The notes below the pieces were generated by a model. It had not been told where the DNA came from. It ran no database searches and saw only the letters and a program-made list of their open reading frames with translations. From the NCBI GenBank assembly GCA_965229705.1, contig OZ245922.1:974763-1006762 (forward strand): 32,000 nt of DNA, written 5' to 3'. Both the position numbers and the translations under genes were made by a program. This DNA is from Candidatus Saccharimonadota bacterium. Its GTDB lineage: Bacteria; Patescibacteriota; Gracilibacteria; BD1-5; UBA6164. Of this stretch, positions 5,817-15,045 are shown one piece after another. Position 1 is the stretch's first letter. Each line of letters starts with the position of its first letter.

Positions 5817-6659
5817 ATGAGTATGCAACATTTTCTTGAAACTTTGAGTGTATTTTATATTTCTCCCTCTATGATGGGGATAGTTTTTGTGATGTTGTTT
5901 CTTTTAGGAATTTCTTTTCTTTTTACGAGATTCCCTGAGAGTAACTTTTCTCTTGTATGAGATATGTTTTACGAAAAAATATTTTCTTTTTTTGATGACC
6001 TTTTATGAAGCGACTTTTCTCTTGGTACAAAAACATTTATTGTGAGTCTCTTTTTCATTATTCTTTTCACAAATATTCTTGGAATATTTTTGGATTTTTT
6101 GGCTCCTATCTTTGGTGTGAGTGAAGGGGGCTTTGTTTTGGAAAAATTTATTCGTATTCCGAGCGCTGATGTTCAGTTTAATATGGCATTAGCAATCGTC
6201 AGTATGGTACTGCTCATCTATTTACAGTTTTTAGCTCTTGGAAAAAAAGATTTTTTTCTGAGCTATTTTCCGATATATGGGAAAGGATATCTAGAATTGC
6301 AGAAGGGAAGTATGAACCATATTTTGTATTGGATCGTTTTTCCTTTGGTCAAAATTTTTGATATTCTTATATCATTTTTTCTGAGTTTTTTGGATATTAT
6401 TGGCTTGTTTGCAAAGGTCATTTCTCTGTCGTTTCGTCTTTTTTGAAATATTGTTTCAGGCGGAGTTCTCCTAGCGATACTCATAGTTGCTCTTGGGAAC
6501 TTTACGGAGTCCCTTACAAGTTTTATGGGAGGGATTCATTTTCCTGTAATACTTCCGTTGATAGTATATGCGCAGTCACTGCTTATAGCAGTGATACAGG
6601 CTCTGGTATTTTCTCTCTTGGTTGCGATATTTATGAAGGTAAGTCAGGGGGAGAATTAG
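5817..6659 (+). CDS. atpB: F-type ATPase Fo subunit a, extra copy (a1) belonging to an F1-less a/c-c/b module, 280 aa
   Basis: The frame from ATG 5817 joins to ORF 6042..6446 and onward through three TGAs. The protein is polytopic and hydrophobic. It carries the stator-arginine motif LSFRLF[G]NIVSGGVLL and the C-terminal helix AVIQALVFSLLVAIF. Confidence 0.85.
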
Positions 6660-6737
6660 GAGACAAGAGGCTACTTTTTTGCACTTATAATAAAAGTATG
6701 ATAGCATAGAAATATATTATTTCTTACACAGACACTT

Positions 6738-7187
6738 ATGGATATCTCGGCAATTTCACTTTGAGCGTCACTTTCAGTATGACTTGCAGGAATCTGAGTA
6801 GCTCTTGGTCAATCAGGACTTGCAAGAACAGCTATCGAAATGATAGGGAAGTCGCCACGACTCTCAGGAACTATGCTTATTTATACTATTCTTGGATTGG
6901 CACTTGTCGAAACAGCAATTATTTATGGACTGGTAGTAGCTTTTTCGATTATCGGAGCAACAGATGTAGGGAGTAGCCATCTTATAGGCGCTGGTCTTGT
7001 TATGGGTCTTACAGCTTTTTGAGCTGGTTATGGTGAAGGGAGACTTCTCTGCGCTGCTCTTGAAGCCGTAAATAGAAACCCAGAGAACAAGGCGCAAATA
7101 CTTCAGTATATGGTACTTTTTGCAGCACTTGTCGAGACTTCTGCTATATATGGACTGATTATTGCGATGAAACTCCTTAACGCTTAA
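6738..7187 (+). CDS. atpE: Fused tandem (double-hairpin, 4-TM) F/V-type proteolipid c-c subunit, 149 aa; both hairpins keep the carboxylate
   Basis: ATG 6738 to TAA 7185-7187, with four in-frame TGAs. Hairpin 1 reads GIGVALGQSGLARTAIEMIGKSPR...LALVETAIIYGLVVAF. Hairpin 2 reads AF[G]AGYGEGRLLCAALEAVNRNPE...AALVETSAIYGLIIAM. Each aligns position by position with a canonical c-subunit hairpin. Confidence 0.85.
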
Positions 7188-7192
7188 ATATC

Positions 7193-7660
7193 ATGCTCCA
7201 AATAGACATATACATTCTTTTTGCGCAAATAATCAATTTTTGAATTCTCTTTTTTATATTCAAAAAATATATTGCCAATGCGATGAATGCTCGAATACAG
7301 GAGCGCAGAAGAGAGCTAGAAAAACTCAAAAAAGCCGATGAACACTACGAACAAAAAATGTCTCTTGCACAACAACAAAAAAAAGAAATACTTGATACCG
7401 CTCGAGAAACAAGCTCAGCATTGATGAAAGAGTCAGAAGTGATTATACAACAAAAGGTAGGAACAATTATTGCAAAAGCCAAGCAAGAAGCTCTTGCTAT
7501 TTTGGAGAGTGGTAAACGCGAGCTGGAAAAAGACCGTCTTTCTATGCTCTCTCAGATGAAGTCTCATATTATTGATGTCTCACTCAAACTGAATGAGAAA
7601 ATGTTTGGAAAATGAAAAACCAATAAAGAGTTTTTAGAAAAAGAGTTAGAGAATTTATAG
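7193..7660 (+). CDS. atpF: F-type ATPase Fo subunit b, extra copy (b1), 155 aa
   Basis: ATG 7193 lies 5 nt after the c-c stop. One N-terminal TM segment (IYILFAQIINF[G]ILFFIF) is followed by a long charged coiled-coil region. The C-terminal block LKLNEKMF matches the LKLNEKLF of the second b gene. Two in-frame TGAs; stop TAG 7658-7660. Confidence 0.8.
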
Positions 7661-8018: not shown

Positions 8019-8858
8019 ATGGCTGAAGCATATCCTGAAAAAACAGATACCACTCCTATTGGAGAAACCTCTCACGCGCAGTCACATCATGAGTGACCAC
8101 ATATTCCTTTAATACAAGGAGAGACTGTGTATGGTCCGATTTCTAATACGACACTTACCAGTTTTATATTTTTGGTTATTGTCTTTTTTGTTGCTATTTC
8201 AGCAAAGAAAGCCCTCCTCAATAATAAAAAATCAAAACCCAAGCTCTTTTTTCTCACTTTTGTAAAATTTTTTGATGATCAGCTTCGAGATGCTTTTGGA
8301 AATAAGAAAATGGCAAGAGCCTATTTTCCCCTCATCGTAGGAATGTTTTTTCTCATACTTTTTGGAAATCTCTTTTGACTCCTCATAGACTGGTTTGGTC
8401 TTTCAGTTATGCCAAATATCCTTTACTACTTGAGACCTATGCATAGTGACATGAATACTACTCTTGTACTTGCGAGTATTACCGTTGTAATACTTCTCAC
8501 AATACAGATAAAAACTCATGGGACAGGAGGAATGCTCAAATCATATTTATGGAACTTTCAGGGAGACGGCATCATGTCAAAATGTATAAATGTCTTTGTT
8601 GGATGGCTTCATCTTATTGGTATTCCAGCGACTCTAGCATCTCTTTCTCTTCGTTTATTTGGAAATATTTTTGCGGGAATCGTTTTGATTGGAGTGATAA
8701 GTTATTTGATGGCATGAGCAACATGAGCAGTTTTTGAGATTGGAAGATTGGCAGTAATACCGTTTTGGTTTTTTGAAGTATTTGTCGCGCTGATTCAGGC
8801 GATCGTTTTTACATTTTTGATGATTGCATACTTTAAGTGAGCAAGCGAACACCACTAA
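8019..8858 (+). CDS. atpB: F-type ATP synthase Fo subunit a (a2), 279 aa
   Basis: ATG 8019. ORFs 8127..8378 and 8409..8717 join in frame through TGAs. Motifs are LSLRLFGNIFAGIVL (essential Arg) and ALIQAIVFTFLMIAYF. Stop TAA 8856-8858. Confidence 0.92.
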
Positions 8859-8927
8859 AAAGTAAGATACATATTTTCTCTTTATTTTTCAAGAAGAGAA
8901 AATATAATTTTATTTTTTATACTATAA

Positions 8928-9158
<231 letters not shown>

Positions 9159-9274
9159 ATATGCAGAAGCTTTGTGCTTCTTTGCTCTCGCTTTGCAGTG
9201 TGCTTCGCGGGATGAGTAAAAAGAATAGATGAGTTTTTACATGCAAAAAGTATTTTTATTATGTGAGCATCACT

Positions 9275-9283
9275 TGGTATAAT
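9275..9283 (+). promoter_or_regulatory. Candidate extended -10 promoter element (TGgTATAAT) in the atpE-atpF spacer
   Basis: TGGTATAAT at 9275-9283 lies 63 nt upstream of the atpF ATG, inside an unusually long 187-nt spacer. I see no good -35. Confidence 0.3.
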
Positions 9284-9345
9284 ATTTTTTACTCTGTATC
9301 TCATTATCTTTAAGTATTTTTAATAAGTAATTTATAATTGATTTT

Positions 9346-9846
9346 ATGGCAGCACAACAAGCCCAAGGACTTATAAATCTTCAATTTGTCACAGTAGAAA
9401 CATTTATTATTCAGTTTATTATACTCTTAGTAGTATTATGGGTATTGAATAAATTTGTTTTCAAACCATATCTTGCGTATCTCGATGAATGGGAGGCAAA
9501 ACAAGAAAAGGTGCAAGAAGACTATAATAACGCTGAAAAAATACTTGAAGAAAAGCGTCAACAGTGAGATAAGATGCTCGAGAATGCTCGCATGAAATGA
9601 AACCTACTCATAGAAGAGTCGGAAACACTTGCAAAACAAAAAAAGGAAAAAATACTTCTTGATGCTGAGACAGAAGCTCAAAATGCTGTAAACGCTGGAC
9701 AGAAACAAATAGAACAAGAACGCCGATGAATGCTTTCGGATATGAAAGAAAATGTTATGAACCTGGCACTTAAACTCAATGAGAAACTTTTTCAAGATGA
9801 AAAAGCCTCAAAAGATTTTATGAAAAAGCATATAGATACCCTTTAA
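9346..9846 (+). CDS. atpF: F-type ATP synthase Fo subunit b (b2), 166 aa
   Basis: ORF 9346..9567 continues through three TGAs to TAA 9844-9846. It has an N-terminal TM segment (FIIQFIILLVVLWVLNKFVF), a charged coiled coil and the C-terminal LKLNEKLF block. Confidence 0.88.
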
Positions 9847-10240: not shown

Positions 10241-11746
10241 ATGTCACAAGATGTATTACAGTCAATTATCTCTGAAATAGAGGCAAAGATAGATTCTACT
10301 GATTTTTCTCCTGAGATTGAAAATGTTGGAGAAGTTTTTTATCTCTGAGATGGAGTTGCAAAAGTATCAGGACTAAGAGGAGCAAAATACAATGAAGTCT
10401 TGGAGTTTGATTCTGGAGCAACAGGAGTAGCTCTCAATCTTGAGGATCACTTTGTTGGTGTAGTGATTCTCTCGGGTTTTGCTAGTGTAAAAGAGGGAGA
10501 AAAAGTTACTTCTACCGGGAAAACACTTGAGGTACCAGTTGGAAAGGAGATGATAGGAAGAGTTGTTGATGCTCTTGGAAGACCGATCGATGGACTTTGA
10601 GAGATAGCTACAAAGGAGCATTATCCAGTAGAGAGAACCGCAGAATGAGTAATGGCTCGTAAGTCGGTTCATGAACCTATGGAGACAGGTATCAAGGCGG
10701 TTGATGCGCTCGTACCTATTGGACGAGGACAGCGTGAACTTATTATTGGTGATAGGCAAACAGGAAAAACACAGGTAGCAATAGATACGATTCTCAACCA
10801 AAAAGGTCAAAATATGATGTGTGTGTATGTTGCTATTGGTCAAAAAGAAGGAAAAGTATCACGAACAGTAGAAGAACTCCGAAAGAGAGGGGCTATGGAC
10901 TACACTATTGTTGTTTCAGCAGGGGCTTCAGAACCAGCAGCAATGCAGTATCTTGCTCCATATACAGGGTGTGCTATGGCTGAGTACTTTATGTACAACA
11001 GTCAGCACGCACTTATTATTTATGATGATCTCTCAAAACAGGCAACGGCGTATCGTGAAATGTCTCTCCTCCTCAGAAGACCACCAGGACGAGAGGCGTA
11101 TCCGGGAGATGTATTTTTTCTTCACTCACGACTTTTGGAAAGAGCTGCCAAACTCTCAGATGAAAAAGGTGCTGGATCTATGACAGCGCTTCCGATTATT
11201 GAAACGCAAGCAGGTGATGTATCTGCTTATATCCCGACGAATGTGATTTCTATTACTGATGGGCAGATATTTCTCGACTCAAACCTCTTTAACTCAGGAC
11301 AAAAACCAGCGATATCAGTAGGTCTTTCAGTTTCACGAGTTGGATGATCAGCGCAGATGAAAGCCATGAAAAAAAATTCTGGAACACTCAAACTTGATCT
11401 TGCTCAGTATCGTGAACTTGCAGCATTTTCACAATTTGCTTCTGATCTTGATGAGGCAACGAGAGCCCAGCTAGACAGAGGAGCTCGTATGATGGAACTT
11501 CTCAAACAAGGGCTTAATGCTCCAGTACCAGTACCAAAACAGGTATGTGCACTCTATGCGGGAGGAAAAGGATATCTTGATGGTATTTCAGTAGAAAAGG
11601 TTTTGAAATTTGAAGAAGATTTACACGCTGCTCTTGATCAGGATAAGAAAGTACTTGAGACGCTTGCAAATGAGAAAAATCTCTCAGAAAATACAGAAAA
11701 AGATCTGGTAAAGATCATAGAAAAAGTAGTTGAGTTACATAAGTAA
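10241..11746 (+). CDS. atpA: F-type ATP synthase F1 subunit alpha, 501 aa
   Basis: ATG 10241. ORFs 10400..10600, 10652..11347 and 11357..11746 are in one frame, joined by TGAs at conserved Gly positions (RPIDGL[G]E, AE[G]V, SRVG[G]SAQ). Walker A is GDRQTGKT; also [41 protein letters not shown]. Confidence 0.97.
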
Positions 11747-11751
11747 AAAAC

Positions 11752-11883
11752 ATGTTCAATTCTGAAAAAGGAATCGTTGATTTTGACATAGATGGTAATG
11801 TTGTAGAGATAGAAATGTTTTGAGTAAAGAAGACTTTTGCGAAAAATAATATTTTTCTTGATCAAAAAGAATTAATAGCATAA
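11752..11883 (+). CDS. Short ORF (43 aa) resembling the C-terminal half of a DUF2283 (YuzE-like) protein; possibly a gene remnant
   Basis: It reads MFNSEKGIVDFDIDGNVVEIEMF[G]VKKTFAKNNIFLDQKELIA*. The block G-I-V-D-F-D-x-D-G-N-V-V-x-I-E resembles the DUF2283 core (vvvDfDe.G.vvGIEil). It starts 5 nt after the atpA stop. The resemblance is recalled from memory, not searched. Confidence 0.3.
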
Positions 11884-11890
11884 ATGTAAA

Positions 11891-11946
11891 CTTTTTACTT
11901 TTATCTTTTAACCTTAGACTTTCCACTTTAAACTTTCCACTATTGA
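11891..11946 (+). repeat. Array R1: four tandem 14-bp units (consensus CTTTyyACTTTAAA)
   Basis: The units are ctttttacttttat | cttttaaccttaga | ctttccactttaaa | ctttccactattga. The last unit overlaps the -35 of the cassette-1 promoter. Confidence 0.8.
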
Positions 11947-11969
11947 GAAATACAAAAAAAATATATAAT
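11943..11969 (+). promoter_or_regulatory. Candidate promoter of TA cassette 1
   Basis: TTGAGA (11943-11948), a 15-nt spacer, then TATAAT (11964-11969), with the antitoxin ATG 27 nt downstream. The whole block 11932-11999 recurs almost identically at 12472-12539. Confidence 0.5.
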
Positions 11970-11995
11970 AGAGGCAGTATTTTCTAAAAAAAATT

Positions 11996-12193
11996 ATGGC
12001 AACAATACAAGTTGAGTTACCTGAACAAGTACAAGATACATTTAAAATATCAGAAGAGCCAATAACAACAGAAGACTTTCTGACTCGTCTTGAACAAGCA
12101 GAAGAAGACATGTGGATTGATATAGAGTTAGATGAACCAATATCTATGCAAGAATTTTCCAGGATGCTAAAAAAAGATATTTATGGTTCCTAA
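11996..12193 (+). CDS. Putative antitoxin of TA cassette 1, 65 aa, acidic
   Basis: It reads MATIQVELPEQVQDTFKISEEPITTEDFLTRLEQAEEDMWIDIELDEPISMQEFSRMLKKDIYGS*. The N-terminus (xIxVxLPExV) is reminiscent of a ribbon-helix-helix beta-strand. The 3' end overlaps the toxin start by 11 nt. It is paralogous to ORF 12536..12730, sharing W-x-D-(I/V)-x-(L/F)-DEP-(I/V)-x-x-x-EFS-x-x-LKK-x-I-x-G. Confidence 0.6.
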   Translation: MATIQVELPEQVQDTFKISEEPITTEDFLTRLEQAEEDMWIDIELDEPISMQEFSRMLKKDIYGS

Positions 12194-12422
12194 ATGGCTG
12201 AAAATTATTCAAAAATCACCATATGAATCTCAACTACAAAAAGTTTCTGAGAATATCGTTTTAGGGGATTTTCGATGATTAGATATTAAGAAGATACGAT
12301 GAAAGTTTTGAATATATAGGTGTAGAGTGTGAGACTATAGAATTATTTTTGAGGAGAGAGTAAATGGTGAATACAAAATTCTCCACATAGGAGGAAGAGG
12401 AGATATTTACAAAAATATATAG
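12183..12422 (+). CDS. RelE/ParE-family type II toxin, 79 aa
   Basis: Missing from the standard-code track because it has four in-frame TGAs. It reads MVPKWLKIIQKSPYESQLQKVSENIVLGDFR[G]LDIKKIR[G]KF[G]IYRCRV[G]DYRIIFEERVNGEYKILHIGGRGDIYKNI*. The YR-x-RVGDYRII(F/Y)...I..I..RgdiYk signature is the RelE/ParE hallmark, and its invariant Gly is a TGA. Confidence 0.8.
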
Positions 12423-12426
12423 TATA

Positions 12427-12485
12427 CTTTCCACTTTAAACTTTCTACTTTAAACATCTTTTAACTTTTCGCTTTCCACTATTGA
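12427..12485 (+). repeat. Array R2: four 14-bp units with a 3-nt hiccup
   Basis: The units are ctttccactttaaa | ctttctactttaaa | (cat) cttttaacttttcg | ctttccactattga. The last unit again overlaps the -35. Confidence 0.8.
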
Positions 12486-12508
12486 GAAATACAAAAAAAG
12501 TATATAAT
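12482..12508 (+). promoter_or_regulatory. Candidate promoter of TA cassette 2
   Basis: TTGAGA (12482-12487), a 15-nt spacer, then TATAAT (12503-12508). The geometry matches cassette 1. Confidence 0.5.
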
Positions 12509-12535
12509 AGAGACAGTATTTTCTAAAAAGAAATT

Positions 12536-12730
12536 ATGGTTGTAATGGAGGTAGAGGTTCCACAAAAAATAGCAGAATCGTTTTTTGAATCAAAACAAAG
12601 AATTAGCTATGCTGACTTGAGGAAAAAAGAACAAGAAATCGAGGCGACAGAGTGGACGGACGTTATGTTTGATGAGCCTGTCCCTATAGAAGAATTTAGT
12701 GTCTACCTCAAAAAACAAATACATGGTTAA
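12536..12730 (+). CDS. Putative antitoxin of TA cassette 2, 64 aa
   Basis: It reads MVVMEVEVPQKIAESFFESKQRISYADLRKKEQEIEATEWTDVMFDEPVPIEEFSVYLKKQIHG*. It is a paralogue of 11996..12193 and overlaps the downstream toxin ATG (12723) in the same way. Confidence 0.6.
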   Translation: MVVMEVEVPQKIAESFFESKQRISYADLRKKEQEIEATEWTDVMFDEPVPIEEFSVYLKKQIHG

Positions 12731-12960
12731 AAAATGGCAGAAAACGATAAAAAAAGCTCCGAATAAAGAAAAAATTAATGAAGTAATTGATAAGATATTT
12801 AGTACAAGATTTTCAGGAATTAGATATCGATATACTTCATGGAAAAGAAAAGCACTTTCGTTGTAGAATATGAGATTTTAGAATCATATTTTCCAAGAAA
12901 AATGGAAAAATAGAGATAGAGGGAGCCGGACATAGATGAGATGTTTACAAAAATATATAG
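12723..12960 (+). pseudogene. RelE/ParE-family toxin copy 2, disrupted by an apparent +1 frameshift in a T-run near 12798-12800
   Basis: The N-terminal frame (ATG 12723) reads MVKKWQKTIKKAPNKEKINEVIDKI, colinear with toxin 1, but runs to TAG at 12864. The +1 frame from about 12799 reads LVQDFQELDIDILHGKEKHFRCRI[G]DFRIIFSKKNGKIEIEGAGHR[G]DVYKNI*, ending at 12960. Deleting one T from ATATTTAG restores a full-length RelE-like ORF colinear with toxin 1. Confidence 0.65.
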
Positions 12961-12964
12961 TATA

Positions 12965-13048
12965 CTTTTAACCTTAGACTTTCCACTTTAAACTTTTAAC
13001 TTGTAACTTTAAGCTTTAAACTTTTAACTTATAACTTGTAACTTCCCG
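12965..13048 (+). repeat. Array R3: six tandem 14-bp units ending at the atpG start codon
   Basis: The units are cttttaaccttaga | ctttccactttaaa | cttttaacttgtaa | ctttaagctttaaa | cttttaacttataa | cttgtaacttcccG, and the final G is the first base of the atpG GTG. The first 32 nt (12965-12996) are identical to 11905-11936 in R1. Confidence 0.85.
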
Positions 13049-13953
13049 TGGCAAACGCAAAAGAAATAGGACGAAAAATTTGAAGTATTAAAAATACCTC
13101 AAAAATCACCAAAGCAATGGAACTCATCTCAACAGTGAAGATGAAGAAAGCTCAAGACCTTGCAATGCAAAAAAAAGACTTTGTGATAGAAATGCTGAAA
13201 GTATTTTCTCGTATTGAAGGTTTTTTAGAAGATTTTTCATATTTTCAAAAATATGAGAGTCAGAAAACTCTGGGGATCATTATCACTTCAAATAAAGGTT
13301 TATGTGGAGGGTATAATGTAAATGTTTTAAAAAAAGTACATGAGTACACAAAACAAAATCCAGATGAAGATATGGACTATATCAGTCTTGGGAAAAAAGC
13401 AGCAGCCTTTGTAACTCGAACAGGAAATACGCTTCATGCAGATTTTTCTCCAGAGTATACAGATAATATTGATACACGCTTTGTAAAATCTCTCACGCAG
13501 ACTATGTATGATGCCTATCTTTCTGGAAAATATGGGAAGGTTGTAGTGTTTTATAACTACTATGTCAACTCTATTAAACAAATTCCGGTTGCCCGAGAGT
13601 TTCTTCCTATTGATGCTCAGGGAGTACGAAACTATCTTGAGAGCATTATTGATGACGAAAAGGTTCTTGAAGATATAGGAAGCGAGACTATAGATTATAT
13701 TATAGAACCAAGCTCAGAGTCTATTGCTGATGATCTTATACCAATGATTCTTGATATGATGTTTTATGATATTTTACTTCAGGCAAAAGCCTCAGAACAC
13801 TCAGCAAGAATGGTTGCGATGAAAGCAGCAAAAGACAATTCTCAAAAAATTGCGGATATGCTCACACTGCAGTTTAATAAAGCCCGCCAAGGACTCATTA
13901 CTAGAGAAGTATCTGAGATAGTCGCAGGTGTTGAATCTCTCAAGGATACCTAA
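13048..13953 (+). CDS. atpG: F-type ATP synthase F1 subunit gamma, 301 aa, GTG start
   Basis: Starting at GTG 13048 the N-terminus reads (M)ANAKEIGRKI[G]SIKNTSKITKAMELISTVKMKKAQ, the canonical gamma N-terminus. The C-terminus reads ...ARQGLITREVSEIVAGVESL. ORF 13117..13953 is the part downstream of the TGA. Confidence 0.93.
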
Positions 13954-14022
13954 CAATTCTTGAGAGAAGTATTTGAAAAACACGATACAAGAAAGATTTT
14001 ATTTTTTTACACATATCTTCGT

Positions 14023-14475
14023 ATGAAATATATAAGCATAGCTCTCAAGATGATGATAAATATCGCGTTATATTGTATATATGTGATTTGTATTTCTTTT
14101 GTTTTTTCTTTCTTTTTCCCTCTAGCACTCAGACTTATGGGAAAAAATATTCCACACTACGCAGATCCAGTTTTTGTCAAAATCCAAGTATTTATTGCAG
14201 CTCTTGTACTCCTATTGTCCCTTATTTTTCGTAAATATCTCTACACTTCCTGTAAGGATAAAAAATATCTTTCTGCAAAAAATCAGAAATCTAGTAGTAA
14301 TCCAACAACTACTCAAGCTCATAATCATCAAAAAACAGTGAAAAAAACGGTAAAAACACCAGCAAAGAAAACTCCTGCAAAAGCAAAAAAACCAGTAAAG
14401 AAAAGAGCAAGTTCTCAGGCAAAAACAAAAAAAGAAGATGATATGAAAATATATGTAGAAAAAGAAATAAAATAA
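14023..14475 (+). CDS. Hypothetical membrane protein with a Lys/Pro/Ala-rich basic tail, 150 aa
   Basis: ATG 14023 lies within ORF 13960..14475. There are two predicted TM helices (INIALYCIYVICISFVFSFFF and VFIAALVLLLSLIF). The tail reads KTVKKTVKTPAKKTPAKAKKPVKKRASSQAKTKKEDD, resembling a histone-H1-like AKP repeat. I recognise no family. Confidence 0.5.
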   Translation: MKYISIALKMMINIALYCIYVICISFVFSFFFPLALRLMGKNIPHYADPVFVKIQVFIAALVLLLSLIFRKYLYTSCKDKKYLSAKNQKSSSNPTTTQAHNHQKTVKKTVKTPAKKTPAKAKKPVKKRASSQAKTKKEDDMKIYVEKEIK

Positions 14476-14558
14476 TTTCGGGATTTATTCAAATCCTCAA
14501 GTAAAAGAATTATTCTTTTGTTTGATCTTTTGAATAAATACACATACAAAAAGGAATA

Positions 14559-14607
14559 TCGAGACCGGTCTCGAGTTCCAAATATTTAGTAACAGGAGAC
14601 CGGTCTC
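14559..14607. promoter_or_regulatory. Pair of GC-rich perfect palindromes sharing the core GAGACCGGTCTC; candidate operator or RNA structure upstream of rnhA
   Basis: TCGAGACCGGTCTCGA (14559-14574, a 16-bp perfect palindrome) and GAGACCGGTCTC (14596-14607) have centres 35 bp apart. They lie 13-61 nt upstream of the rnhA ATG in otherwise AT-rich DNA. Confidence 0.4.
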
Positions 14608-14619
14608 TCTCAAGAAAAG

Positions 14620-15018
14620 ATGTTACTACGAGTATATACAGATTGAGGATCTAGAGGGAACCCATGAGTGGCAGGCCTAGGAGTGTATATAGTGGACAAA
14701 GAGGGAACACCTCTTGAGAGACGCTATAAGTATCTCGGAACGACGACCAATAATATCGCCGAGTATACAGGGGCATTCTATGGAATAAAAAGAGCTCTTG
14801 AGCTCTGAGCTACACAGATAGAACTCTATATGGATTCAAAACTGGTTATATCGCAACTCAAGGGAGAGTGGAAGGTAAAAGACGCTGAGCTCAAAAAAAT
14901 TTATTTAGAGATTCTCCAGTTAGTATGAGACAGAGATGTGAGCTATAACTGGATCCCAAGAGAGCAAAATACTGAGGCAGATGCACTCAGTAATAAAGCT
15001 ATGGACGAAAAGATCTAA
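14620..15018 (+). CDS. rnhA: Ribonuclease HI (type 1 RNase H, short archaeal/actinobacterial-like form), 132 aa
   Basis: Absent from the standard-code track because it has four in-frame TGAs. It reads MLLRVYTD[G]GSRGNP[G]VAGLGVYIV...TNNIAEYTGAFYGIKRALEL[G]ATQIELYMDSKLVISQL...WIPREQNTEADALSNKAM. The D-E-D-D catalytic positions are present (YTDGG, AEY, MDS, EAD). Confidence 0.8.
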
Positions 15019-15045
15019 AAATAATTATTAAACATATTTTATCCT

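What the first reader, a model, noticed from the sequence alone, without database searches (positions are those of the whole stretch)
12965..13050. The longest repeat array ends exactly on the atpG GTG start and has no promoter block
R3 lacks the conserved TTGAGA...TATAAT block found in R1 and R2. Its sixth unit supplies the first base of the atpG GTG start codon. Expression of atpG, and probably atpD and atpC, therefore appears to depend on read-through from the TA cassette promoters or from far upstream. The translation-initiation region of gamma is built from putative antitoxin-operator repeats. This raises the inference that TA status could gate F1 gamma, beta and epsilon supply at the DNA or RNA level.
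Basis: inference. Interest (0 to 1): 0.65.

Follow-up and report, generated by a model that had tools for sequence, protein, structure and literature searches.

The report
Variable heptad tract ahead of atpG
The repeat run touching the start of the ATP-synthase gamma gene is the strain-variable 7-base repeat tail of a toxin-antitoxin cassette that has lodged inside the ATP-synthase operon of a Gracilibacteria genome; it is probably not an antitoxin binding site, and most likely just forms the gene's unstructured leader.

Summary
Window 12964-13047 is 12 head-to-tail heptads (ACTTTNN). They end one base before the atpG GTG (13048) and lack the TTGAGA-15-TATAAT block that follows R1 and R2.

The genome uses code 25 (TGA=Gly) and none of the 30 genes checked shows a Shine-Dalgarno motif upstream. 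Two RelE/ParE-type toxin-antitoxin cassettes sit between atpA and atpG. Toxin 2 is frameshifted.

Cassette-free relatives have a 15-37 nt atpA-atpG spacer, and one of them also starts atpG with GTG. The tract before atpG has about 3.5, 7 and 12 heptads in three strains. In L126 the same promoter block has no array upstream of it. More distant cassette-bearing relatives have no heptads. A related cassette upstream of glmS (L131) ends in the same heptad tail, in the same register against the ATG.

My reading is that each cassette is [promoter block, antitoxin, toxin, heptad tract], and R3 is simply the last tract. It is G-poor, weakly structured and carries stops in all frames. I infer that it acts as an SD-independent leader and spacer.

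Read-through expression of atpG is plausible but unproven. The operator and "TA gates F1" ideas are not supported. Interest is moderate: a new variant of known kinds.

The parts
10241..11746 (+). atpA (F1 alpha), 501 aa under code 25
   Evidence: Code-25 ORF. Orthologs in L001, L002 and L005 carry Pfam ATP-synt_ab domains.
11752..11883 (+). 43-codon remnant of a DUF2283 gene (C-terminal half only)
   Evidence: Pfam DUF2283 model positions 29-48 of 49, E=0.002, below the curated cutoff. It is collinear with the intact 66-aa DUF2283 gene of L126.
11887..11943 (+). R1: heptad array of about 8 units, upstream of promoter block 1
   Evidence: TRF period 7/14 and parsing. It shares a 32-nt identical stretch with the start of R3. 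Its origin is unresolved.
11940..11995 (+). Conserved promoter-like block 1: CTATTGAGA-15-TATAAT...GTATTTTCTAAAAA, up to the antitoxin ATG
   Evidence: 94.7% identical to block 2, while the coding DNA is 59% identical. It is conserved in L001 and L126, and its core in L128 and L129.
11996..12193 (+). Antitoxin 1 (65 aa), from a rare family with no Pfam or NCBIfam name
   Evidence: Only 12 representatives among 1.84 billion proteins.
12183..12422 (+). Toxin 1 (79 aa, three TGA=Gly codons), RelE/ParE superfamily
   Evidence: Pfam PF05016 ParE_toxin at 24.0 bits against a cutoff of 23. It overlaps the antitoxin by 11 nt.
12426..12481 (+). R2: heptad tract following toxin 1, with a 3-nt register slip. 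It is the 3' tract of cassette 1 and lies upstream of block 2.
12479..12535 (+). Conserved promoter-like block 2
12536..12730 (+). Antitoxin 2 (64 aa), 34-38% identical to antitoxin 1 depending on the aligner
   Evidence: Its coding sequence is 99.5% identical to that of L001.
12723..12962 (+). Toxin 2, disrupted by a +1 frameshift: one extra T relative to the intact 78-aa gene in L001
   Evidence: The N-terminal and C-terminal halves read in different frames. L001 reads ...GATATTAGTACAAG... where the window has ...GATATTTAGTACAAG....
12964..13047 (+). R3: 12 heptads, the finding itself. It is the 3' tract of cassette 2 and the leader of atpG.
   Evidence: A 35-nt (5-unit) indel separates it from L001. 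4 G in 84 nt. TAA at -23, -16 and -9, one in each frame.
13048..13953 (+). atpG (F1 gamma), 301 aa, GTG start
   Evidence: Pfam ATP-synt E=1.6e-76, model positions 1-285. 98% identical to P0001.

Best explanation
R3 is the 3'-terminal heptad tract of toxin-antitoxin cassette 2. It is not an operator array that has lost its promoter.

In this Gracilibacteria lineage (code 25, no SD-like motif upstream of the genes checked), small RelE/ParE-type TA cassettes have lodged in the atpA-atpG junction, co-oriented with the operon. Each cassette has the layout [conserved promoter block, antitoxin, toxin, run of ACTTTNN heptads]. When cassettes lie in tandem, each tract ends up just upstream of the next cassette's promoter; that is R2. 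The last tract, R3, abuts the host gene, so it naturally has no promoter block.

The tract behaves as a 7-nt minisatellite. It changes length by slippage or unequal recombination, giving about 3.5, 7 and 12 units in three strains. It also supplies the homology through which whole cassettes are gained or lost: L001 lacks cassette 1 and has an R1/R2 chimeric array.

Functional part (inferred): the tract is G-poor, pyrimidine-rich and weakly structured, and it carries TAA or TAG in all three frames. I therefore infer that it separates toxin translation from the host gene and provides the unstructured, SD-independent initiation region from which atpG (GTG) is translated. The mRNA would be made by read-through from the atp promoter and/or the cassette promoters.

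Shown: the anatomy, the strain variation, the absence of heptads in cassette-free relatives, and the same tail at a second locus. Inferred: read-through transcription, the leader/spacer function, and the slippage mechanism.
For: - Code 25 and the gene map. No SD-like motif upstream of 30 genes. The sister lineage Absconditabacteria is classed as SD-scarce (PMC10783764).
- The heptad motif is confined to the three arrays and absent from the cassette-free relatives L002, L004 and L005. Those relatives have 15-37 nt atpA-atpG spacers.
- L126/L127 have the block directly after the DUF2283 stop with no array, and about 3.5 heptads between the toxin stop and the GTG.
- L001 (atpG 98% identical) has one cassette, 7 heptads before the GTG, a clean 35-nt indel relative to the window, and a chimeric R1/R2 left array.
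- In L131 a related toxin (T2-like) upstream of glmS is followed by ...ACTTTTA ACTTGGA ACTTGTA ACTAATC ATG. This matches the R3 tail at 24 of 31 positions in the same register to the start codon. Other leaders score 6-14, and shuffled 32-kb sequence reaches at most 21.
- No terminator-like site and no + strand sigma-70-like site in R3.
- G content is 1/54, 1/56 and 4/84 in the arrays against 19% in the window.
- Leader folding (-60..+20) is -4.1 kcal/mol against a median of -7.8 for 31 genes.
- Stop density in R3 is 0.119 against 0.026 for the window, with TAA at -23, -16 and -9 in three frames.
Against: - R1 does not fit the simple model. It follows a DUF2283 remnant, not a toxin, and the homologous position in L126 has no array.
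- The leader's low folding energy is not an outlier; several genes score -2.9 to -3.9.
- Mean unpaired probability inside R3 (0.46) is no higher than in its flanks.
- Only one independent second locus (L131) supports 'tract belongs to the cassette 3' end'. Its run is short (3-4 units) and separated from the toxin stop by about 60 nt of other sequence.
- More distant cassettes (L128, L129) work without any heptads, so the tract is not required for cassette tolerance.
- There are no transcript or protein data.
Confidence: 0.55

Rival explanations
1. First reader's model. The heptads are operator sites for the antitoxin or the toxin-antitoxin complex. R3 is an operator array without a promoter that acts as a roadblock or RNA-level gate, so that TA status controls gamma (and beta and epsilon) supply.
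For: - Arrays of at least 4 contiguous 7-bp repeats next to a promoter are how the RHH protein omega/ParB of pSM19035 binds (PMC9499535).
- R1 and R2 end exactly at the -35-like TTGAGA.
- The L131 antitoxin has an RHH-type DUF6364/CcdA-like N-domain.
Against: - The same promoter block in L126/L127 has no array.
- The homologous cassettes in L128 and L129 have no heptads.
- Unit number differs by 5 between 98%-identical strains.
- The units are heterogeneous.
- The 65-aa antitoxins lack the RHH N-domain seen in L131. Their AF2 model (pLDDT 80.5) has no PDB fold match and there is no Pfam or NCBIfam hit.
- A more conventional operator candidate exists inside the block: the imperfect inverted repeat TTGAGAAATAC...GTATTTTCTAA around the -10.
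- Toxin 2 is frameshifted.
Confidence: 0.1
2. Neutral minisatellite. The tract is a by-product of replication slippage in an A/T-rich spacer. It has no role beyond being tolerated, and its position against the start codon only reflects where the cassette was inserted.
For: - Large copy-number differences between close strains.
- Degenerate units.
- More distant cassette-bearing genomes manage without it.
- The leader's structure values are not outliers.
Against: - The last ~28 nt are conserved, in register with the start codon, between two different loci and diverged cassettes: atpG in the window and glmS in L131.
- G is strongly depleted.
- The motif is absent everywhere else in 32 kb and in cassette-free relatives.
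Confidence: 0.25
3. R3 hides an independent atpG promoter, for example TTTAAG-16-TATAAC at about 13008-13035, producing a nearly leaderless atpG mRNA.
For: - A -10-like TATAAC lies 12 nt upstream of the GTG (read directly from the sequence).
- Several genes in the window have TATAAT-like hexamers close to their start codons.
Against: - The sigma-70 scan finds no + strand site in R3.
- TATAAC lacks the conserved final T, and the -35 candidate matches only 3 of 6.
- L126 and L131 lack TATAAC at that position.
- Promoter rules for Gracilibacteria are unknown.
Confidence: 0.07

Closest known systems
Chromosomal type II toxin-antitoxin modules of the RelE/ParE superfamily
   Same: - Two small overlapping genes with the antitoxin first.
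- The toxin hits Pfam PF05016 and has the ...YRCRVGDYRIIF...RGDIY motifs.
- The module has its own promoter-like block.
- It shows strain-variable presence and decay: a frameshifted toxin here and an orphan antitoxin in L129.
   Different: - The antitoxin belongs to a very rare, unnamed family (12 representatives among 1.84 billion proteins) with no recognisable DNA-binding domain.
- The cassettes sit inside the F1Fo operon, between atpA and atpG.
- They carry a 3' heptad tract.
- The non-coding blocks are 95% identical while the coding DNA is 59% identical.
Heptad operator/parS arrays of omega (RHH ParB) in inc18 plasmids such as pSM19035, which also regulate the omega-epsilon-zeta TA operon
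   Same: Contiguous 7-bp repeats, 7-12 in a row, placed next to promoters of a TA-containing unit.
   Different: - The unit sequence differs (ACTTTNN here).
- All units are direct repeats.
- The arrays are not conserved with the promoter across relatives.
- One array (R3) has no promoter.
- No RHH regulator was identified.
- Copy number is unstable between strains.
Intergenic short tandem repeats / VNTRs, such as the cyanobacterial STRR heptamers or contingency-locus repeats
   Same: - Head-to-tail 7-nt units.
- Copy-number polymorphism between close strains with conserved flanks.
- They serve as recombination substrates.
   Different: - The tract is tied to a specific gene cassette, not dispersed through the genome.
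- It is positioned in register against a start codon.
- It is not in a coding region or between -35 and -10, so classic phase variation does not apply.
A/U-rich unstructured leaders and translational enhancers for SD-independent initiation, for example the T7 gene 10 'epsilon' UUAACUUUA (recalled from memory)
   Same: - A G-poor, U/A/C leader directly upstream of the start in a genome where no SD-like motif was seen upstream of the genes checked.
- L126 contains TTAACTTTAA and the window contains GTAACTTTAAG.
   Different: - No evidence of 16S complementarity or of enhancer activity here.
- The resemblance is short and could be chance.
- It was not tested.

Membership tests
Type II TA, RelE/ParE superfamily | Toxin matches the family profile above the curated threshold | tested here: met
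   T1 scores 24.0 bits against a cutoff of 23 for PF05016. Repaired T2 scores 17.5 bits, below the cutoff, but is 47% identical to T1.
Type II TA, RelE/ParE superfamily | Small antitoxin gene immediately upstream of, and overlapping or abutting, the toxin on the same strand | tested here: met
   AT1 11996-12193 and T1 12183-12422. AT2 12536-12730 and T2 from 12723.
Type II TA, RelE/ParE superfamily | Antitoxin with a recognisable DNA-binding domain that autoregulates the operon | tested here: inconclusive
   No Pfam, NCBIfam or PDB sequence hit. The AF2 model (pLDDT 80.5) has no Foldseek match. A dimeric ribbon-helix-helix fold cannot be excluded from a monomer model.
Type II TA, RelE/ParE superfamily | Toxicity and neutralisation | not testable with these tools
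   This needs expression experiments.
omega-type heptad operator array | At least 4 contiguous 7-bp repeats | tested here: met
   About 8, 8 and 12 units. The requirement is taken from PMC9499535.
omega-type heptad operator array | Array is an integral, conserved part of the regulated promoter | tested here: not met
   L126/L127 have the block without an array. L128 and L129 have no heptads. R3 has no promoter.
omega-type heptad operator array | A cognate RHH repressor is encoded with it | tested here: inconclusive
   No RHH is detectable in AT1 or AT2. Only the L131 antitoxin has a DUF6364/CcdA-like domain.
VNTR / minisatellite | Head-to-tail repeats with copy-number polymorphism between close strains and conserved flanks | tested here: met
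   12 units against 7 between the window and L001, a single 35-nt indel with identical flanks. About 3.5 units in L126.
Independent sigma-70 promoter for atpG within R3 | -35 and -10 hexamers with 16-18 nt spacing on the + strand | tested here: not met
   No + strand site in 12964-13047. The consensus used is E. coli-type, so the test is weak for a CPR organism.
Known structured RNA (riboswitch, leader, sRNA) | Match to an Rfam covariance model | tested here: not met
   0 matches at E<=1 in 11600-13300, both strands.

The most novel reading that the evidence does not exclude
Gracilibacteria harbour a family of promoter-bearing RelE/ParE cassettes that settle immediately upstream of the start codons of essential genes inside operons: atpG here, glmS in L131. 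Each brings a 3' heptad tract that rebuilds an SD-independent initiation region for the host gene. The essential gene then becomes transcriptionally and translationally wired to the cassette. The tract's length, which varies between strains, would tune host-gene output and mediate cassette gain and loss.
Probability: 0.15. Interest if true: 0.7.

Novelty: new variant of a known kind. Interest (0 to 1): 0.42.

Why it matters
If the tract really is a cassette-borne leader, it would show how a selfish TA module can insert between two tightly coupled essential genes without killing the host, in an organism with a recoded genome and apparently no Shine-Dalgarno use. It would also give a natural length series (about 3.5, 7 and 12 units) for testing what makes an SD-independent initiation region work in CPR bacteria, which cannot yet be cultured or manipulated easily.

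It also documents the atpA-atpG junction as a recurrent insertion hotspot in this clade.

If the tract is only a neutral minisatellite, the finding is an ordinary strain-variable repeat next to an ordinary TA pair.

Tried and rejected
It returned 120 heterogeneous loci from cyanobacteria, Bacteroidota, Acidobacteriota and other phyla. None had a RelE/ParE motif upstream, and none approached the window's 4.7-fold gain in long-ORF sequence under code 25 (all under about 2.5-fold; the window itself has 36% GC). The generic heptad is not diagnostic, and the scan was effectively wasted.

2. A metagenome-contig scan for the conserved block TATATAATAG-N4-5-AGTATTTTCTAAAAA found nothing. The toxin-based metagenome scan found only an unrelated Phd/RelE-like pair, L130.

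3. A viral-contig scan for the R3/L131 tail found nothing, so there is no sign that the cassette is phage-borne.

4. An Rfam search of 11600-13300 found nothing.

5. The antitoxin could not be assigned a fold. The 3-sequence AF2 model was poor (pLDDT 64). The 13-sequence model was better (80.5) but had no PDB match, and the PDB sequence search gave only spurious hits.

6. I first thought the tract grew out of the native atpA-atpG spacer. I dropped that idea because L131 has the same tail upstream of a different gene.

7. Rho-utilisation site idea: the tract is C>G and unstructured, but most C residues follow A rather than a pyrimidine. I did not pursue it.

Full report
**Genome context**

The window is not a standard-code genome. 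Under table 11 the ORFs are shattered: ORFs of 100 aa or more sum to 3,812 aa. Under table 25 (TGA=Gly) they sum to 17,897 aa and give a clean gene map. The in-frame TGA codons fall where glycine is expected, for example atpG ...RKIGSIKNT... and the toxin motif ...RGKFGIYRCRVGDYRIIF. The closest gamma subunits in public data are annotated Candidatus Gracilibacteria.

None of the 30 genes checked has a Shine-Dalgarno-like sequence upstream. The sister lineage Absconditabacteria is classed as 'SD-scarce' in PMC10783764. The missing ribosome-binding site at atpG is therefore normal for this genome.

**Anatomy (code 25)**

| Feature | Coordinates | Notes |
|---|---|---|
| atpA | 10241-11746 | |
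| DUF2283 remnant | 11752-11883 | 43 codons |
| R1 | about 11887-11943 | heptad array |
| Block 1 | 11940-11995 | promoter-like |
| Antitoxin 1 | 11996-12193 | |
| Toxin 1 | 12183-12422 | Pfam ParE_toxin, 24.0 bits against cutoff 23 |
| R2 | 12426-12481 | heptad array |
| Block 2 | 12479-12535 | promoter-like |
| Antitoxin 2 | 12536-12730 | |
| Toxin 2 | 12723-12962 | frameshifted |
| R3 | 12964-13047 | heptad array |
| atpG | 13048-13953 | GTG start |

Toxin 2 is split by a +1 frameshift. Its N-terminal and C-terminal halves read in different frames. The 98%-related strain L001 has the intact 78-aa gene with one T fewer.

**Checking the observation**

R3 is real and non-random. TRF reports period 7, 11.6 copies, score 93. 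Twenty of the 22 near-matches to ACTTTNNACTTT in 32 kb lie in the three arrays, against about 7 expected, and no shuffle reached 22.

R3 is the longest array at 84 nt. The 75-nt conserved block exists in only two copies, after R1 and R2. The sigma-70 scan finds no + strand promoter-like site and no terminator-like site in the region.

The GTG at 13048 is the true atpG start. The Pfam gamma model aligns from its first position at residue 3, and an in-frame TAA lies three codons upstream.

The statement that the sixth unit supplies the G of GTG depends on choosing a 14-nt register starting at 12965. In the natural 7-nt register the array ends at 13047.

**Relatives**

Twelve context look-ups, 11 of which returned a locus, give a graded series of atpA-atpG junctions.

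| Locus | atpG identity | atpA-atpG junction | atpG start | Heptads |
|---|---|---|---|---|
| L002/L003 | 81% | 18-nt spacer, no cassette | GTG | none |
| L005 | 76% | 15-nt spacer | ATG | none |
| L004 | 78% | 37-nt spacer | ATG | none |
| L136/L137 | 77% | 402 nt with an unrelated ~100-codon ORF | ATG | none seen in the gap |
| L128, L132-134 | 79% | homologous TA pair (antitoxin 52% identical), flanked by a duplicated atpA-3'/atpG-5' junction | ATG | none |
| L129 | partial gene, not measured | DUF2283 end, core block, orphan antitoxin, 21-nt spacer | GTG | none |
| L126/L127 | 78% | 52-aa ORF, intact DUF2283, block directly after its stop, cassette-1-like pair | GTG | about 3.5 (TCTTTAA ACTTTTA ACTTTAA ACTGACC) |
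| L001 | 98% | DUF2283 remnant, array, block 2, antitoxin 2, intact toxin 2 | GTG | 7 |

The L128 arrangement is an insertion footprint. In L126/L127 the block has no array upstream of it.

The window differs from L001 by one whole cassette and by a clean 35-nt (five-unit) indel inside R3, with identical flanks. L001's left array is R1-like on its left and R2-like on its right. That is what recombination between R1 and R2 would produce.

**What this means for R3**

Relatives without cassettes do keep a short spacer, and at least one keeps GTG. The start codon therefore owes nothing to the repeat.

Second, the heptads are not an integral part of the cassette promoter. The block is conserved without them in L126, and more distant cassettes lack them altogether.

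Third, the tract is consistently found after the toxin and against the next start codon. The strongest evidence is L131. This is a different locus in another code-25 organism. A T2-like toxin, paired with an antitoxin that has a DUF6364/CcdA-like N-domain, is followed by ...GTA ACTTTTA ACTTGGA ACTTGTA ACTAATC ATG of glmS. This 31-mer matches the tail of R3 at 24 of 31 positions, in the same register to the start codon. The leaders of other window genes score 6-14, and shuffled 32-kb sequences give at most 21.

The economical reading is that the cassette unit is [block, antitoxin, toxin, heptad tract]. R2 is cassette 1's tract, which happens to lie upstream of block 2. R3 is cassette 2's tract and abuts the host gene. 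That explains why R3 lacks the promoter block without invoking a degenerate operator.

R1 does not fit neatly. It follows a DUF2283 remnant, and it shares 32 identical bases with the start of R3. Gene conversion or an earlier lost cassette could account for it, but I could not resolve this.

**Concerted evolution**

The two blocks are 94.7% identical while the antitoxin and toxin coding DNA is about 59% identical (antitoxins 34-38% at the protein level, toxins 47%). The orthologous block in L126 is only 85-87% identical to either window block. The non-coding junctions (toxin 3' end, tract, block) are therefore being homogenised within the genome. That fits their role as recombination substrates.

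**Likely function**

The arrays contain almost no G: 1/54, 1/56 and 4/84, against 19% genome-wide. The atpG leader (-60..+20) folds at -4.1 kcal/mol against a median of -7.8 for 31 genes, although several genes are similar. Stop-codon density in R3 is 0.119 against 0.026 for the window. Because 7 is not a multiple of 3, the last three units place a TAA in each frame, at -23, -16 and -9.

I infer that the tract serves as a spacer that halts any upstream translation, and as an unstructured, SD-independent landing region for initiation at the atpG GTG. Transcription would enter from upstream. The ancestral 15-37 nt spacing implies co-transcription of atpA and atpG, the cassettes are co-oriented, and no terminator is predicted. 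None of this has been measured.

**The operator hypothesis**

Contiguous 7-bp repeats beside a promoter recall the omega/ParB system of pSM19035, where an RHH protein needs at least four contiguous heptads (PMC9499535).

The evidence here points the other way:
- The arrays are not conserved with the promoter.
- Their copy number is unstable between near-identical strains.
- The 65-aa antitoxins belong to a tiny family (3 proteins by word-indexed search, 12 representatives by exhaustive HMMER).
- That family has no Pfam, NCBIfam or PDB match.
- The AF2 model (pLDDT 80.5) matches no solved fold.

A more conventional operator candidate is the imperfect inverted repeat TTGAGAAATAC...GTATTTTCTAA that brackets the TATAAT inside the block (read from the sequence).

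The proposed gating of beta and epsilon is weaker still. atpG and atpD are 1.1 kb apart, with a conserved small ORF and an RNase HI gene between them.

**Verdict**

The read-through inference is reasonable. The operator and gating interpretation is not supported.

What is there is a strain-variable heptad minisatellite that forms the 3' end of RelE/ParE cassettes nested in the ATP-synthase operon of a Gracilibacteria genome, and it doubles as the leader of atpG. I found no description of TA cassettes inside atp operons or of such tracts in the literature searches. It combines known kinds of elements (type II TA and VNTR) in an unusual place, and I score it as moderately interesting.

Noticed in passing
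window 1-32000: The genome uses genetic code 25 (TGA=Gly). Code-11 ORF calling shatters nearly every gene, so any annotation of this window must use table 25.
   Followed up: yes
window 12723-12962 (extra T near 12797-12799): Toxin 2 carries a +1 frameshift relative to the intact gene in strain L001, while its antitoxin is intact. This is either TA decay or a homopolymer assembly error.
   Followed up: partly
window 5817-7660 and 8019-9846: There are two consecutive sets of Fo genes: a, c and b, then a, c and b again. The first c subunit is double length (149 aa). The arrangement is conserved in L001 and L005. L001 has two extra genes (110 and 504 aa) inside the first set that the window lacks.
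   Followed up: no
window 13954-15045: atpG and atpD are separated by 1.1 kb. This holds a small ORF conserved in relatives (123-141 aa) and an RNase HI gene (14620-15018) present only in the window and L001. Three terminator-like hairpins there lie on the minus strand.
   Followed up: partly
L128 2903-3568 (also L132-L134): The TA cassette is flanked by a duplicated atpA-3'-end/atpG-5'-start junction. A 34-nt atpG 5' fragment lies before the cassette and a 30-nt atpA 3' fragment after it. This looks like a footprint of insertion by single-crossover or Campbell-type recombination.
   Followed up: partly
L136 3099-3500; L129; L126 59-408: The atpA-atpG junction is a recurrent insertion hotspot in this clade. 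Different strains have an unrelated ~100-codon ORF, an orphan antitoxin, or a 52-aa ORF plus a DUF2283 pair.
   Followed up: partly
window 11940-11995 vs 12479-12535: The promoter-like blocks of the two cassettes are 94.7% identical although their coding regions are only about 59% identical. They are closer to each other than to the orthologous block in L126. This suggests gene conversion of the non-coding junctions.
   Followed up: partly
L131 1292-1900: A related toxin is paired with a longer antitoxin, whose N-domain is DUF6364/CcdA-like (RHH type) and whose C-terminal tail resembles antitoxin 2. The pair sits upstream of glmS. Antitoxins in this family appear to swap N-terminal domains.
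   Followed up: partly
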